Shown in pieces: positions 3,447 through 16,668 of a DNA stretch of 64,000 nt. Location of the stretch: the IMG/VR virus record IMGVR_UViG_3300036852_000741, positions 1 to 64,000 of that record; one strand, 5' to 3'. The stretch comes from a virus. The position numbers were made by a program, and so were the translations under genes. The notes beneath the pieces are model-generated. The model ran no database searches. It had not been told where the DNA came from and saw only the letters and a program-made list of their open reading frames with translations. Within the stretch, counting starts at the first letter, position 1. Every line of letters starts with the position of its first letter.

Positions 3447-4595
3447 CTACGCCGCAGCGTCTGCCCACGGTCCCCATGCGGCTTCTAGCTGCTTGAGCGG
3501 AACGCGCGTCGCATCCGTGCTTGCTCTTGGTGCGGGCGCATCCATGGCTTCCAGAAAGCGATCGCACTCGTCGCGCAGGTTGGCCACGCTGGCGCGAACC
3601 CGCTCACGCATCGCGTCTGGCACTTCGGTAGCGATCGGAACTGTCACGCGAAACGAAGTGGCGTACTCGCGCGAGACGATCGCCAGGCGACGGAAGAAGG
3701 CCATCGCGCTCCACGCCTGTGCGTCGCGCTCCTGCACGCGCTTGCGCTCCGCCTGCTCGTTCTCCCAGCGCTCCATCTTCTGCGCCTCCGCGTAGGTCGT
3801 GGACGGCGAGCCCAGCAGTCGCTCGCGGACCGTCGGACTGGCCCGGTCCAGGAACTCCAGGACTTCAGGGAAGCCACCGCCGCCGGGGACCTTGCCGCTG
3901 AGCGCCTTCCGGCCAAGCGCTACCTGCTCGTTCTCGGACAGGCCGGAGCCGGTGAGCGCCGCTCCCACGTTGAGGTCGAGCCTGTGCTCCAGCAGCAGGG
4001 TCTGCACTCCCGGGGCTGCGTTCTTGACGATGCGTACCGAGCGGTCGGCGTGCTGACCGCCGGGTGCCGGGTTGCTCTTGTCGGCGAAGCGCCTGGCCAT
4101 CTTCTTCTTGGTCTCGGGGGGCATGTTGGCTTTGGCGAGTGCGCGGGCGTCCTCGCGCCCGATTTCTCCGTTCTCCGCCATGTCGGCCACCTCGTCGGGC
4201 AGGTTGAGCATCGCCATGAGGCTGGTGATCGTCGCCTCCGTCGTCCCCACGTAGGCGGCGAGTATGGCGTGGCCGACCTTGCCGTCGCTGGACTCGGCGC
4301 GCAGCATCTCGCGCAGGTCGCGCAGCGCCCGCGCCTTGGCCATCGGCGTGAGGTGGGACTTGGCCATCTCGTCCGACAGCCTCAACGCCAACGCCCCCAC
4401 CTCGGTGGCCTGGATGACGTGTGGCGTGACCTCCAGGCCGAGGCGTTCGGCGGCCTGCCGGCGGCCCTCTCCCAGGACGACCTCGCCGCTGGGCAGGGTG
4501 ACGACCGGCTGGGCGAGGCCGAAGCGCCGGATGGACTCGATCAGGTCGGGGGACGGCTCTGGGCGTGGCAGATGCCGTGGGGGCTTGAGGGGCAT
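3447..4595 (-). CDS. ParB/Srx N-terminal domain protein with HTH
   Basis: LIESIRRFGLAQPVV..VLGEGRRQAA ParB box followed by a helical HTH-like region. Confidence 0.7.
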   Translation of the reverse strand: MPLKPPRHLPRPEPSPDLIESIRRFGLAQPVVTLPSGEVVLGEGRRQAAERLGLEVTPHVIQATEVGALALRLSDEMAKSHLTPMAKARALRDLREMLRAESSDGKVGHAILAAYVGTTEATITSLMAMLNLPDEVADMAENGEIGREDARALAKANMPPETKKKMARRFADKSNPAPGGQHADRSVRIVKNAAPGVQTLLLEHRLDLNVGAALTGSGLSENEQVALGRKALSGKVPGGGGFPEVLEFLDRASPTVRERLLGSPSTTYAEAQKMERWENEQAERKRVQERDAQAWSAMAFFRRLAIVSREYATSFRVTVPIATEVPDAMRERVRASVANLRDECDRFLEAMDAPAPRASTDATRVPLKQLEAAWGPWADAAA

Positions 4596-13343: not shown

Positions 13344-13907
13344 ATGGAAGGCACCCGCACCCCCATCAAGATCGTCGTCTACGGCACGCCGGCCCCCGCG
13401 GGGTCCAAGACGAGCACCGCCGTCTACCGCAAGGACCCGCAGACCGGCAGGGCGGTTCCGGTGATGACCGGGGACGGCCGGGTCATCACCAGGGTGCGCG
13501 ACGCCAACCCGGACGCCGGGTCGTGGAAGGAGTCGGTGGCTCAGCGCGCCCGCGAGCAGTACGACGGGCCGGTGCTCACGGGCGCGGTGCGCCTGGAGGT
13601 GACGTTCTTCACGCCGCGGGGTGCCAACCACTACGGCACGGGGCGCAACGCGGGGCGCCTGAAGGACTCGGCGCCGCTGTTCGTCACCAAGAAGCCCGAC
13701 GCACTCAAGCTCGCCCGCGCGGTCGAGGACGCACTGACGAACGTCGTCTGGGCCGACGACGCGCTGGTCTGGCAGGGCGCGCAGCGCAAGGTGTGGGTGG
13801 AGCGCACGGAGCCCGCCGGCTGCGAGATACTGGTCACGCCCGAGCCCGTGCTCACAGTGGGCGATCAGCGCGGTGCCGGGCAGGGCACCCTCGCGCTCGT
13901 CGCGTAG
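13344..13907 (+). CDS. rusA: RusA-family Holliday junction resolvase
   Basis: PAPAGSK, KPDALKLARAVEDALT..WADD. Confidence 0.85.
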   Translation: MEGTRTPIKIVVYGTPAPAGSKTSTAVYRKDPQTGRAVPVMTGDGRVITRVRDANPDAGSWKESVAQRAREQYDGPVLTGAVRLEVTFFTPRGANHYGTGRNAGRLKDSAPLFVTKKPDALKLARAVEDALTNVVWADDALVWQGAQRKVWVERTEPAGCEILVTPEPVLTVGDQRGAGQGTLALVA

Positions 13908-14036
13908 AGGCTTGCCAAGGGAGAGCCGGGTCGCCGGAGTGCCTGCGGGCTACCGGTGATCCGGCCTGCTCCAATAGCAAGGTGCGGCATGGCCGCGGTG
14001 CGCCTTCGCGCAATCGCGTTGCGGATCGCTTTAGGG

Positions 14037-14057
14037 GTGCGCACATCGTGTTAGGCT
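14037..14057 (+). promoter_or_regulatory. variant operator/extended -10 promoter of the RAMP-like gene
   Basis: GTGCGCACATCGTGTTAGGCT (TGn-TAGGCT). Confidence 0.55.
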
Positions 14058-14132
14058 GCCGCCTCCTGGCTGGGCGTGGCATGGCAGCCACGACCTCGGG
14101 CTATCACACACAGCGACCAGGAGGGTCGAACA

Positions 14133-14774
14133 TTGAGCACTGTGGCCGAGCGCAAGCGGGTCATCCCCGCCGCGTACCGTGAAGGCACCATCCGAATCGA
14201 GGGGACCGCTCCGCTGCTGATGCACCGGGACACGCTCCTTGACTTGGCGCATCCGATCACCCGCGAGTTTAAGCTGCTCGCCGGCAAGAGCAGTAAGGAC
14301 CGCACGCCGGACGACGAGATGAACCTGGCCAAGCTGGAATGGCTGGCGGGCATCTACCACGACGAGGACCTTGGGCCGTTCATCCCGGGCGTCAACGTCA
14401 AGACGGCGCTGGCGGAGGCCGCCACGCGCTGGAAGAAGGGCGCCACCATCCGGCGCTCCCTCATCGTCCTGGAGCACAAGCTGGCGCTGGAGTTCAGCGG
14501 GCCACGCGACCTGGAGACGCTTTGGGAGGAGGGCTACCGCGACGTGCGCGGCGCCGTCAACTCGGGCTACGGGCGCGGCCGGGTGTCGCGCTGCCGGCCA
14601 TGCTTCCCGGACTGGGCGCTGACCGCCGAGGCCGCCTACGACCCGGCGGAGGTCGGCGAGGACACCGTGGTCGCCGCGCTGGAGGTGGCGCAGATGCGCG
14701 GCCTGGGCGACTTTCGCCCGGAGTTCGGCACGTTCGTAGCGACGTGGACGCCGAAGACGAACGGTACGAAGTGA
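14133..14774 (+). CDS. stand-alone Cas7/RAMP-like protein
   Basis: TIRIEGTAPLLMH, PFIPGVNVKTAL and C-terminal G-rich loop GLGDFRPEFGTF mirror RAMP hallmarks; AGGAGG 8 nt before TTG. Confidence 0.65.
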   Translation: MSTVAERKRVIPAAYREGTIRIEGTAPLLMHRDTLLDLAHPITREFKLLAGKSSKDRTPDDEMNLAKLEWLAGIYHDEDLGPFIPGVNVKTALAEAATRWKKGATIRRSLIVLEHKLALEFSGPRDLETLWEEGYRDVRGAVNSGYGRGRVSRCRPCFPDWALTAEAAYDPAEVGEDTVVAALEVAQMRGLGDFRPEFGTFVATWTPKTNGTK

Positions 14775-14944
14775 TGAGCGCCTACCAGAAGCTCGTCCAG
14801 GCGCGGGACGCCGTGTTCCATGCGATGGGCTGGGTGCCCCGGCAGTTCGACGTGCCCGAGACTGAGGGCTCGATCGAGCGGCTGAACGCAGAGCTACACG
14901 CTCGGAGCCACGCTGCGCTGCGGCGGAGGATCAAGGGCGAGTAG
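14774..14944 (+). CDS. 56-aa protein coupled to the RAMP-like gene
   Basis: TGATG overlap; MSAYQKLVQARDAVFH.. Confidence 0.55.
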   Translation: MSAYQKLVQARDAVFHAMGWVPRQFDVPETEGSIERLNAELHARSHAALRRRIKGE

Positions 14945-14949
14945 GACGA

Positions 14950-15269
14950 GGCCCGGCAAGGCGGGGCTTGGCAACGCGGGGCCTGTCGTGGCAAGGCGTG
15001 GCATGGGCGGGGCATGGGCCAGGTACGGCGTGGCGAGGGATGGCCGCGGCGAGGCTCGGCAAGGCCCGGCCCGGCGTGGCACGGTTCGGTGCGGCTGGGC
15101 GCGGCCTGCCATGGCAAGGCAGGGCGAGGCATTGCGCAGCGTGGCCAGGAGCGGCATGGCCGGGCTGGGCGTGGCGCGGCACGGCGCGGCGAGGTCTGGC
15201 GAGGCGCGGAGGGCATGGCTAGGCCAGGCGCGGCGAGGCTGGGCGCGGCCCGGTGGGTTCGGTGCGGTC
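14950..15269 (+). ncRNA. GGY-NN pentamer array, candidate guide RNA
   Basis: About 60 tandem 5-mers with fixed GGC/GGT and variable NN; no credible ORF. Confidence 0.65.
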
Positions 15270-15294
15270 GGTGGTCACGCTGCCGATCGCACCG

Positions 15295-15558
15295 TCAGAC
15301 CATCTGGCGCACGAGCTTGCGGCCTTCGCGTGAGGCGGTCAGTGCGGTCTGGTGGTCGGCCCCGCGGGCTCGCTCGCTGTGATAAATGGCGGTCTCAAGC
15401 TCCGCAACAAGCACCCAGACGATCGCCTGACGATCGAGTTGGGTCATGCGCTCTGCCATCGTGATCGCAACTAGCAGAGCATCAACCCGGCGGGCGGAGC
15501 GCTCGGCGAGGTGCTTCCAGCGGCGCCGGACTTCGGCGCGGACCTGGGCGGCGGTCAC
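15295..15558 (-). CDS. hypothetical protein
   Basis: GTG overlapping the upstream stop. Confidence 0.45.
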   Translation of the reverse strand: MTAAQVRAEVRRRWKHLAERSARRVDALLVAITMAERMTQLDRQAIVWVLVAELETAIYHSERARGADHQTALTASREGRKLVRQMV

Positions 15559-15812
15559 TAGTCCAGCCACCCGAAGCTGGCGACCTTGGCGTAGGACCCC
15601 GGTGCCGAGAGGTCGTCGCGGGTGACCGTGGCGTACGCGCAGTGCCCGTTGGTCAGGGCCTTGAGCGCGTCGGCGTTGTCGCCGTCGAGCGCGACGACGA
15701 GCTTGTCGTCGTCGGCGGTGGTGTAGACGACGGTGGCGCGCGCCCGCAGCGCGATGCCGGAGCCGTCGTAGGCGTAGGTGACGAGCACCTTGTTGCCGGT
15801 GGTCACGTCCAT
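15558..15812 (-). CDS. hypothetical protein
   Basis: CCCGACCAAGGAG RBS at 15819-15831. Confidence 0.65.
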   Translation of the reverse strand: MDVTTGNKVLVTYAYDGSGIALRARATVVYTTADDDKLVVALDGDNADALKALTNGHCAYATVTRDDLSAPGSYAKVASFGWLD

Positions 15813-16075
15813 CGTGGTCTCCTTGGTCGGGAACTCTCGCTTCCGGGTGGGACCCGCGGAGACAGCGAACGCGGCGGCTGGCCATCCCGGGCGGTACCAG
15901 CCCGGGTGGGCTTCACGCCACTCCAGCCTTCTTTCGACCCGGGGTGCCACCCCCGGACCGCCGCGCTGCTCGCCCTGGCGGGGCGACGGGCGCGGGACGC
16001 CCTGGCTCGTCGCTGCCTTCGTGGGCCTCACCCGGCCCTCCGGCGGCCGGAGCCTTTCCGACCGCACCCACATGG

Positions 16076-16094
16076 TAGCACACATCGTGAGCTA
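16076..16094 (-). promoter_or_regulatory. operator/promoter repeat
   Basis: TAGCTCACGATGTGTGCTA-CCAT on the minus strand. Confidence 0.8.
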
Positions 16095-16104
16095 GTCCTA
16101 CCAA

Positions 16105-16281
16105 TCAGTGCTCGATTGCCGTCATGCGCTGGTCAAGGCGCGCGAGGGCAACCTCTATCGCGCTCACGCGATCCTCGACTCTGCCCAGGCGGGCCTCGAT
16201 GCTCCGCAACGAGCGTGTGATCCAGGCAGTCTGGAGAGCCAGTAGGCCAGCAAACGCCGCGATTGTTTCCCAGTCGATCAT
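16105..16281 (-). CDS. small membrane-anchored coiled-coil protein
   Basis: MIDWETIAAFAGLLALQTAW then heptad repeats; AGGAGG RBS; below the ORF-track cutoff. Confidence 0.6.
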   Translation of the reverse strand: MIDWETIAAFAGLLALQTAWITRSLRSIEARLGRVEDRVSAIEVALARLDQRMTAIEH

Positions 16282-16290
16282 GGCTTCCTC

Positions 16291-16668
16291 CTACTCCCAA
16301 ACGGCGCGCGGGTCGCACTCGCCCAGGAGCGCGTTGAGGTCGCTGCGGCTGTAGCGCAGATGACGCCACTCCTCGGCTGCGAAGCGATGGCCGTGGGCCT
16401 CCAGTAGGGCGCGCCGCGCCCGCACGAGCCCGTCAACCGCCTGGGTGAGCAGGCGCCGGTTGCTGGGCTTGCGGCGGTCCTTGATCGACTGGCGCGTATA
16501 TGCCCGCTCGGCCTCCAGCAGGTTGACCAGTCGGGCAAGCTGCCGGCGTCGCTCGGGGTCCTCGCACGCACGGCGCTCGGCCTGGGCCTCGCGCAGCGCC
16601 TGTGCGATGCGCGCGTTGTAGCCCTCGGCCCAGGCGATCTTGCGTTTCATGAGCCTGGAGACGGCCAT
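16291..16668 (-). CDS. hypothetical protein
   Basis: Coupled ORF. Confidence 0.55.
   Translation of the reverse strand: MAVSRLMKRKIAWAEGYNARIAQALREAQAERRACEDPERRRQLARLVNLLEAERAYTRQSIKDRRKPSNRRLLTQAVDGLVRARRALLEAHGHRFAAEEWRHLRYSRSDLNALLGECDPRAVWE

What the first reader, a model, noticed from the sequence alone, without database searches (positions are those of the whole stretch)
15048..15207. NN string of the array gives a testable target code
Seen: NN series GA TC AA CC CC GT AC TC GC TG GC CT AT AA AG GA AT GC GT CA GC AT CG TG GT GC AC GC GA CT GA GC. Single-base phase slips near 15005, 15016, 15047 and 15211 split the array into blocks that could be separate guides. Inference: if each NN pairs and one target base is skipped (NNx), the code could ignore codon wobble positions and resist synonymous escape. 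Read that way the string has no forced stop, which is weak evidence. I found no self-target in the window by eye.
Basis: inference. Interest (0 to 1): 0.75.

Follow-up and report, generated by a model that had tools for sequence, protein, structure and literature searches.

The report
VIPR guide-RNA array in soil phage

Summary
They lie in a roughly 64-unit GGY-NN array at 14950-15270, the only such array in this 105-kb phage genome.

The gene just upstream (14133-14774) is a Vipr protein:
- It matches the solved SUSP1 Vipr structure, PDB 36pp (phmmer E 8e-19; family profile E 1e-38).
- Its predicted fold is that of Cas7/Csm3.
- The residues that hold the GGY bases in SUSP1 Vipr are conserved.

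Of 123 phage contigs found only by the DNA pattern (GGCNN)8GGC or by similarity to the array, 88 encode this protein.

My target searches found nothing above background. I tested skips of 0-3 bases on two blocks of the array in full and three more locally, against the phage's own genome, IMG/VR, GTDB genomes and JGI metagenomes. The best 1-skip hit (22 of 24 bases, in a prophage replication-initiator gene) was equalled by a chance 22 of 24 hit under the 3-skip model.

Earlier notes of this scan report VIPR loci in at least 20 other genomes.

The parts
14133..14774 (+). vipr gene, encoding a stand-alone RAMP/Cas7-like protein of about 210 aa. The start is uncertain: 14076, 14133 or 14142.
   Evidence: It matches phrog_4652 (E 4e-41). 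phmmer gives E 8e-19 to PDB 36pp_D 'SUSP1 Vipr protein' over residues 20-202, and a family profile gives E 1e-38. The AlphaFold2 model has pLDDT 92, and the top Foldseek hits are Csm3/Cas7 chains. In the alignment, H31, K47, R155, D193, F194 and R195 align with SUSP1 H17, K33, R138, D177, W178 and R179, the residues that contact GGY and the skipped base.
14774..14944 (+). 56-aa ORF whose start overlaps the vipr stop codon (ATGA); a possible small accessory (vap-like) gene.
   Evidence: The ORF is open. It has no Pfam or PHROG family and no homologue in 123 other array-bearing loci. Its role is inferred from position only.
14950..15270 (+). vrRNA array of about 64 GGY-NN pentamers. The in-phase runs are 11, 6, 17, 11 and 9 units long, separated by +1 or -1 slips or by degenerate units.
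   Evidence: Shown. It is on the same strand as vipr and just downstream, as are 382 of 392 repeat runs in Vipr-bearing loci.
15048..15207 (+). It probably holds two or more guides. I treated units 1-12 (15048-15107) and 22-32 (15153-15207) as the candidate guides, because the units between them include the non-GGY units GCCAT, TGCGC, AGCGT and GGAGC.
   Evidence: Shown. The guide boundaries are inferred, not shown.
15261..15293 (+). Strong hairpin (16-pair stem) at the 3' end of the array. It may be the 3' cap of the last guide, or a terminator between the convergent genes.
   Evidence: Folding 15240-15310 as RNA gives dG -42.6 kcal/mol, z -2.75 against shuffles. Its function is inferred.

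Best explanation
The array is the guide-RNA (vrRNA) array of a phage VIPR system. It is transcribed with, or just after, vipr.

By homology with SUSP1, one Vipr protomer binds each pentamer. Each GGY is flipped out and held by two neighbouring protomers, and the two NN bases are presented for pairing. A filament of about 9-16 protomers then reads double-stranded DNA in the pattern NNxNNx. One target base per unit is skipped, usually the codon's third base. The bound filament blocks transcription of a competing phage, prophage or satellite.

On this reading the NN string is the targeting information, and the slips and degenerate units separate neighbouring guides.

Shown here: the anatomy of the array, the family membership of the protein, the conserved contact residues and the co-occurrence of array and protein.

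Inferred from the family: expression, processing, the 1-nt skip for this particular protein, and silencing.

Unknown: the target.
For: - The protein is a Vipr, and the residues that contact GGY and the skipped base are conserved.
- Of 123 phage loci found only through the array (by the (GGCNN)8GGC pattern, or by DNA similarity for three F1 phages), with GC contents of 39-76%, 88 encode the same protein family. 382 of 392 repeat runs lie on the vipr strand.
- Over 4,520 pooled units, positions 1-3 carry 1.5-1.9 bits of information each. The NN positions carry 0.0-0.1 bits, and the NN dinucleotide entropy is 3.86 of 4 bits.
- Three F1 mycobacteriophages have nearly identical Vipr proteins but carry different sets of 10-14-unit NN blocks, as guide cassettes would.
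- In low-GC phages the arrays are plainly intergenic.
- The published experiments establish the NNx rule, its reprogrammability and the silencing.
- There is no self-target, as the paper also reports.
Against: - No natural target was found. Eight-unit seeds from units 5-12, scanned over IMG/VR, gave 52, 10, 19 and 14 hits for skips 0, 1, 2 and 3.
- The best 1-skip extension was 22 of 24 bases (L140). A chance 22 of 24 hit under skip 3 (L339, ordinary sequence) equalled it.
- The skipped bases of the L140 site fall on codon position 2 of the real gene, not on the wobble position.
- Nine-unit seeds (units 4-12) gave 18 hits in the GTDB genomes and 24 in the JGI metagenomes, about my rough chance estimate (17-20 under assumed collection sizes). 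Apart from L247, which repeats the L140 site, none extended.
- The punctuation is less regular than in the F1 phages.
- No per-guide 3' tails are visible.
- No recognisable vap gene is present.
Confidence: 0.85

Rival explanations
1. The array is a decayed or non-guiding VIPR array. Vipr still coats the RNA, but the NN letters no longer specify a target. It could be a relic, a scaffold, or a decoy that soaks up a rival phage's Vipr.
For: No target exceeds background under any skip model. 4 of the 32 units are non-GGY and the slip punctuation is irregular. Guide-only 'solo' vrRNAs that redirect a rival's VIPR are described in 10.64898/2026.10.15.759431.
Against: The vipr gene is intact and keeps its key residues. 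The runs of 11, 11 and 9 units fall in the published range of 9-16. The target searches were weak: they needed exact 8-9-unit seeds, and the host is unknown.
Confidence: 0.1
2. The array is translated as a low-complexity protein with the five-residue repeat G-x-A-x-x. It is annotated this way in some mycobacteriophages (Donkeykong gene 48, Florinda gene 59).
For: All three forward frames stay open across much of the array. Genes are annotated over the homologous arrays in those phages.
Against: The open frames follow from the composition: GGCNN can give a stop only when NN is TA. Five single-base slips would shift the reading frame. The period is 5 nt, not 3. In 39-43% GC phages the same arrays lie between a stop codon and the next gene's ribosome-binding site. 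Saal leaves the homologous array unannotated.
Confidence: 0.02
3. The array is a structural nucleic-acid element with no guide role. It could be a two-tetrad G-quadruplex tract, or a terminator or insulator between the convergent transcription units.
For: GG runs spaced 3 nt apart fit the loose G-quadruplex motif (visible in the sequence). The array sits between convergent genes and ends in a strong hairpin.
Against: This does not explain the tight, cross-phylum linkage to one protein family, nor the strand rule. It also does not explain why position 3 is a pyrimidine in 98% of units. In the F1 phages the array lies between co-directional genes.
Confidence: 0.03

Closest known systems
VIPR system of Escherichia phage SUSP1 (type II; Vipr structure PDB 36pp; bioRxiv 10.64898/2026.04.26.720920 and 10.64898/2026.04.26.720927)
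   Same: The Vipr proteins are homologous, with the same fold and the same GGY-contact residues. The repeats are GGY-NN pentamers on the vipr strand. The system is phage-encoded and has no self-target.
   Different: SUSP1 has separate vrRNAs of about 100 nt, each with 9-16 repeats and a pseudoknot tail, and a DNA-binding vap1 gene. This locus has one continuous array of about 64 units. It is broken only by single-base slips and degenerate units, it has a single hairpin at its end, and its only neighbouring ORF is an unclassifiable 56-aa one. Position 3 is almost always C. The phage has 70% GC and its host is unknown.
VIPR 'staggered' vrRNA arrays (same paper, fig. S18 legend)
   Same: In both, a continuous array is read as successive guides whose ends touch. 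In the F1 mycobacteriophages, 4-nt GGCA units (a 1-nt overlap of registers) fall every 10-14 units. The window also has -1 slips, at 15208 and 15252.
   Different: Three of the window's five slips are +1 (6-nt units), not overlaps. One in-phase run is 32 units long. The figure itself could not be read, so the match rests on its legend.
Cas7 backbone of Class 1 CRISPR effectors (Csm3, Cmr4, Cas7)
   Same: The fold is shared: an RRM core, a glycine-rich loop and a thumb. One protomer binds per RNA period, and the thumb interrupts the guide-target duplex.
   Different: In CRISPR the period is 6 nt, with 5 bases paired and 1 flipped out on each strand, and the spacers are contiguous and flanked by long repeats. 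Here the period is 5 nt in the guide (2 paired, 3 sequestered) and 3 nt in the target. No other cas genes or CRISPR repeats were seen next to the locus; the rest of the genome was not searched for them.

Membership tests
VIPR system | Encodes a Vipr protein homologous to characterised Viprs | tested here: met
   phmmer gives E 8e-19 to PDB 36pp_D (SUSP1 Vipr), covering residues 20-202 of 213. A profile of 64 homologues gives E 1e-38.
VIPR system | Minimal RAMP fold (single RRM, glycine-rich loop, thumb) | tested here: met
   The AlphaFold2 model has pLDDT 92.2 and pTM 0.85. The top Foldseek hits are Csm3/Cas7 chains of type III and type VII complexes (E about 1e-6, TM about 0.5).
VIPR system | Residues that hold GGY and the skipped target base (SUSP1 H17, K33, R138, D177, W178, R179) | tested here: met
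   In the alignment these pair with H31, K47, R155, D193, F194 (W to F) and R195. R155 is invariant and R195 at least 90% conserved across the 64 homologues.
VIPR system | Tandem GGY-NN pentamers next to vipr on the same strand | tested here: met
   About 64 units lie at 14950-15270, starting 176 nt downstream of vipr on the + strand.
VIPR system | NN positions are hypervariable while GGY is conserved among relatives | tested here: inconclusive
   This holds for homologous arrays: pooled NN entropy is 3.86 of 4 bits, and F1 phages with nearly identical Vipr carry different NN blocks. It was not testable for the window's own lineage.
VIPR system | Guides of 9-16 repeats, each capped by a conserved 3' tail | tested here: inconclusive
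   The in-phase GGY runs are 11, 6, 17, 11 and 9 units long. There is a single hairpin at the end of the array and no tail after each guide. The published 'staggered' arrays may also lack per-guide tails.
VIPR system | A natural target that matches under the 1-nt skip rule and not under other skips | tested here: not met
   No skip model exceeded background in the phage's own genome, IMG/VR, GTDB genomes, JGI metagenomes or 1 Mb of Vipr-bearing contigs. Power was low, because the collection scans accept only exact seeds. Many published vrRNAs also lack identified targets (only 20 of the 41 vrRNAs of the SUSP1 clade had one).
VIPR system | A vipr-accessory (vap) gene | tested here: inconclusive
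   The 56-aa ORF coupled to vipr has no family and no homologue in the other loci. The RusA gene upstream is an ordinary phage recombination gene.
VIPR system | vrRNA expression, Vipr-vrRNA complex formation, DNA binding and silencing | not testable with these tools
   These need RNA sequencing and biochemistry.
CRISPR-Cas | Repeats of 25-40 nt alternating with contiguous spacers, together with adaptation and effector cas genes | tested here: not met
   The repeat unit is 5 nt, of which 2 are variable. The neighbours examined are an HTH protein, RusA, Vipr and small ORFs. The rest of the genome was not searched for cas genes.

The most novel reading that the evidence does not exclude
This array may represent a VIPR architecture or reading mode that has not been described. 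Its features are a long, untailed array in which +1 slips (6-nt units) as well as -1 overlaps set the guide boundaries, and possibly filaments much longer than 16 units (the 32-unit in-phase run). Alternatively, this distant Vipr (its closest relatives among the contigs fetched here are about 40% identical) may use a skip length other than one. My searches could not tell the skip models apart.
Probability: 0.1. Interest if true: 0.55.

Novelty: new member of a known kind. Interest (0 to 1): 0.3.

Why it matters
The finding independently recovers, from raw sequence, the non-contiguous guide code of VIPR systems. It adds a 70%-GC soil phage to the family.

Two practical points follow:
- GGY-NN arrays are easy to find by DNA pattern alone. 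Of 123 loci found only through the array (120 by the pattern, 3 by similarity to it), 88 carry a Vipr gene.
- Such arrays are sometimes annotated as protein-coding genes, for example in Cluster F1 mycobacteriophages. Those phages can be grown and manipulated in the laboratory, so they could be used to test staggered arrays directly.

The finding does not open a new question. The mechanism was published in 2026.

Tried and rejected
**RNA families.** Rfam over 13500-16500 gave only a sub-threshold mir-602 match (23 bits against a gathering score of 90). I rejected it.

**Early ideas, dropped once the Vipr homology appeared.**
- A TRAP-like RNA-binding array.
- A G-quadruplex tract.
- A Rho-loading site.
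- A pentapeptide-repeat coding region.

**Literature.** Searches for 'pentanucleotide' with 'mycobacteriophage', and for Cluster F tandem repeats, found nothing relevant.

**Target hunting with window guides.**
- Own genome: background only.
- IMG/VR, 1-skip seeds from units 1-8, 5-12, 22-29 and 25-32 gave 15, 10, 3 and 64 hits.
- The best extensions were L140 (22 of 24), the L158 family (20 of 22) and L151 (19 of 22). By rough binomial estimates (which assume about 1.2e11 searchable positions), and by the 0-, 2- and 3-skip control scans run for the first guide block, all three are within what chance gives in a collection of that size.
- No other block of the array hits the whole 52.9-kb L140 provirus.
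- Genome contigs gave 18 hits and metagenome contigs 24. This is about my rough chance estimate, and the only hit that extends (L247) repeats the L140 site exactly.

**F1 mycobacteriophage guides.**
- Three blocks scanned against genome contigs gave no Mycobacterium hit.
- Twelve blocks scanned against 40-kb regions of Saal, Donkeykong and Florinda showed no self- or cross-targeting under the 1-skip rule. The only values beyond the shuffles came under skip 2 for two Florinda blocks, which is unremarkable among 48 tests.

- Pattern mismatches are capped at 3.
- The search for related loci found no close Vipr relative in genome contigs.
- The consensus promoter/terminator scan of 13900-15500 found nothing useful.
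- The VIPR type (I-VII) could not be assigned, because the paper's figures and data files are not held.

Full report
**1. What is in the sequence**

Of these units, 25 begin with GGC, 3 with GGT and 29 with GG, and no other phase gives any GGC.

A segmentation that allows 4- and 6-nt units shows that this block is part of an array of about 64 units at 14950-15270. The array has 6-nt units at 15000, 15011 and 15042, and 4-nt units at 15208 and 15252.

No other period-5 GGC array exists on either strand of the 105,351-base genome, of which the window is the first 64 kb.

Upstream on the same strand lie an HTH protein, a RusA resolvase, a gene of about 210 aa (14133-14774) and a 56-aa ORF coupled to it. 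Downstream genes are on the opposite strand. A strong hairpin closes the array at 15261-15293 (dG -42.6 kcal/mol, z -2.75).

**2. The array is one half of a conserved two-part module**

A distant BLAST of the region against cultured phages matched only the array. The hits were 21 records of Cluster F-type mycobacteriophages, including Saal, Donkeykong and Florinda. These carry arrays of 50-70 units after their antirepressor gene.

Their GC contents range from 39% to 76%, so the array is not a by-product of high GC. In 39-43% GC phages the arrays sit plainly between genes.

An iterated profile started from the window protein found a homologue in 88 of the 123 loci that were recovered only through the array. 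Of 392 repeat runs within 3 kb of such a gene, 382 lie on its strand.

**3. Identity of the protein**

- It matches PHROG 4652, a family of unknown function (E 4e-41), and has no Pfam or NCBIfam family.
- A profile of 64 homologues hits one solved structure, PDB 36pp 'SUSP1 Vipr protein', at E 1e-38. The window protein alone gives E 8e-19 over residues 20-202.
- The AlphaFold2 model is confident (pLDDT 92), and its best structural matches are Csm3/Cas7 subunits of type III and type VII CRISPR complexes.
- In the alignment to SUSP1 Vipr, the residues reported to hold G1, G2 and Y3 and to contact the backbone at the skipped base are H17, R138, D177, W178, R179 and K33. They correspond to H31, R155, D193, F194, R195 and K47 in the window protein. 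R155 is invariant in my family alignment.

**4. What is already known**

[quoted passage not shown] A VIPR system consists of a Vipr protein plus vrRNAs made of 9-16 GGY/NN pentamers.

The authors tested target models with 0-3 skipped bases. They used pangenome searches, competitor-challenged binding assays and GFP silencing, and only the 1-nt skip (NNx) worked. The skipped base usually falls on the codon wobble position, and either DNA strand can be targeted. No PAM is needed and no self-targets were seen. The natural targets are rival satellites, prophages and other VIPR loci.

Cryo-EM shows one protomer per repeat. The GGY bases are sequestered and the NN bases are presented for pairing.

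The paper lists seven types and several array architectures. [quoted passage not shown]

**5. Do the slips separate guides?**

In Saal, Donkeykong and Florinda the Vipr proteins are nearly identical. Their arrays are built of 10-14-unit blocks, most ending in GGCAT and followed by a 4-nt GGCA unit. This is the 1-nt register overlap of a staggered array.

Some blocks are shared between these phages with one or two changes. Others are entirely different, and all three arrays end in the same terminal block and hairpin.

Across all the loci, the lengths of in-phase runs peak at 9-12 units.

In the window the GGY runs are 11, 6, 17, 11 and 9 units long. The 32-unit block is too long for one guide. 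It contains the non-GGY units GCCAT, TGCGC, AGCGT and GGAGC, which probably interrupt the filament.

**6.

*Own genome.* The array was masked and both strands scanned. For windows of 10, 12 and 16 units and skips of 0-3, the best scores equal those of shuffled NN strings.

*IMG/VR, 1-skip seeds.* Exact 8-unit seeds from units 1-8, 5-12, 22-29 and 25-32 gave 15, 10, 3 and 64 hits.

*The best extension.* The best hit is a provirus (L140), matching 22 of 24 bases over units 1-12 and ending at the degenerate 13th unit. It lies in a replication-initiator gene (phrog_2447). Four things count against it:
- The skipped bases fall on codon position 2 of that gene.
- No other block of the array hits the 52.9-kb provirus.
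- The same 8 units searched at skips 0, 2 and 3 gave 52, 19 and 14 seed hits.
- Skip 3 produced an equally good 22 of 24 hit in ordinary sequence (L339).

*Larger collections.* Nine-unit seeds gave 18 hits in GTDB genomes and 24 in JGI metagenomes, about my rough chance estimate of 17-20. The only hit that extends (L247) repeats the L140 site exactly.

*Vipr-bearing contigs.* Against 1 Mb of Vipr-bearing contigs, no block exceeded shuffles at skips 0-2.

*F1 guides.* These found nothing in Mycobacterium genomes and nothing in each other's genomes.

*Conclusion of the test.* No skip model beats background for this array in what I could search. The test is weak, because the collection scans take exact seeds only and the host is unknown. 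It does not outweigh the published evidence for the family.

**7. Other points**

- The remark about 'no forced stop' is empty, because no NN dinucleotide forces a stop when read as NNx.
- In the pooled units, N4 is 69% purine and N5 is unbiased. This is the bias expected if N4 usually reads codon position 1. It is a hint, not a test.
- I could not assign the VIPR type.

**8. Verdict**

The feature is real, it is correctly read, and it is already known. It is a new member of the VIPR family with a long staggered-type array and an unidentified target. Earlier notes of this scan report VIPR loci in at least 20 other genomes.

Noticed in passing
L001 2916-3262 and 3254-4000; L002 3002-3250 and 3241-3987; L003 3002-3250 and 3378-3977: Cluster F1 mycobacteriophages Donkeykong, Saal and Florinda carry a VIPR locus just after the antirepressor gene. 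The Vipr genes are Donkeykong gene 49, Saal gene 51 and Florinda gene 60, all annotated as hypothetical. In Donkeykong (gene 48) and Florinda (gene 59) the vrRNA array itself is annotated as a protein-coding gene, which is probably wrong. The arrays are built of 10-14-unit blocks separated by a 4-nt GGCA unit. The sets of blocks differ between phages whose Vipr proteins are nearly identical.
   Followed up: partly
None of 600 shuffles reached 20; their maximum was 19. The published rule gives no role to a 3-skip match. This is unexplained and probably chance.
   Followed up: partly
L140 8470-8504 (identical sequence in L247, on a 2.6-Mb contig): This is the best 1-skip candidate target for units 1-12, at 22 of 24 bases. 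It lies inside a prophage replication-initiator gene (phrog_2447) in a 67% GC provirus. The skipped bases fall on codon position 2, and the score is no better than the control hits. It is a lead only.
   Followed up: yes
window 14068-14087: Four in-phase GGY-NN units lie just upstream of the vipr start; my run-finder picked them up. This could be a short solo guide, a Vipr-binding site for feedback control, or chance in 70% GC DNA. Similar 4-6-unit runs occur at 4492, 35982 and 46137.
   Followed up: no
L019 422-501 and 1063-1142; L037 1613-1697 and 2352-2426: In low-GC phages, arrays of 13-14 units flank single genes. In L037 the two arrays bracket vipr itself, and each ends in the same small hairpin. 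In L019 the second array runs straight into a good sigma-70-like promoter (TTGCAA, 17 nt, TATAAT).
   Followed up: no
pooled arrays of 89 Vipr-bearing loci (L001-L123 plus the window): The first variable base (N4) is 69% purine, while N5 is unbiased. This is the bias expected if N4 usually reads codon position 1 on the sense strand of the target.
   Followed up: partly
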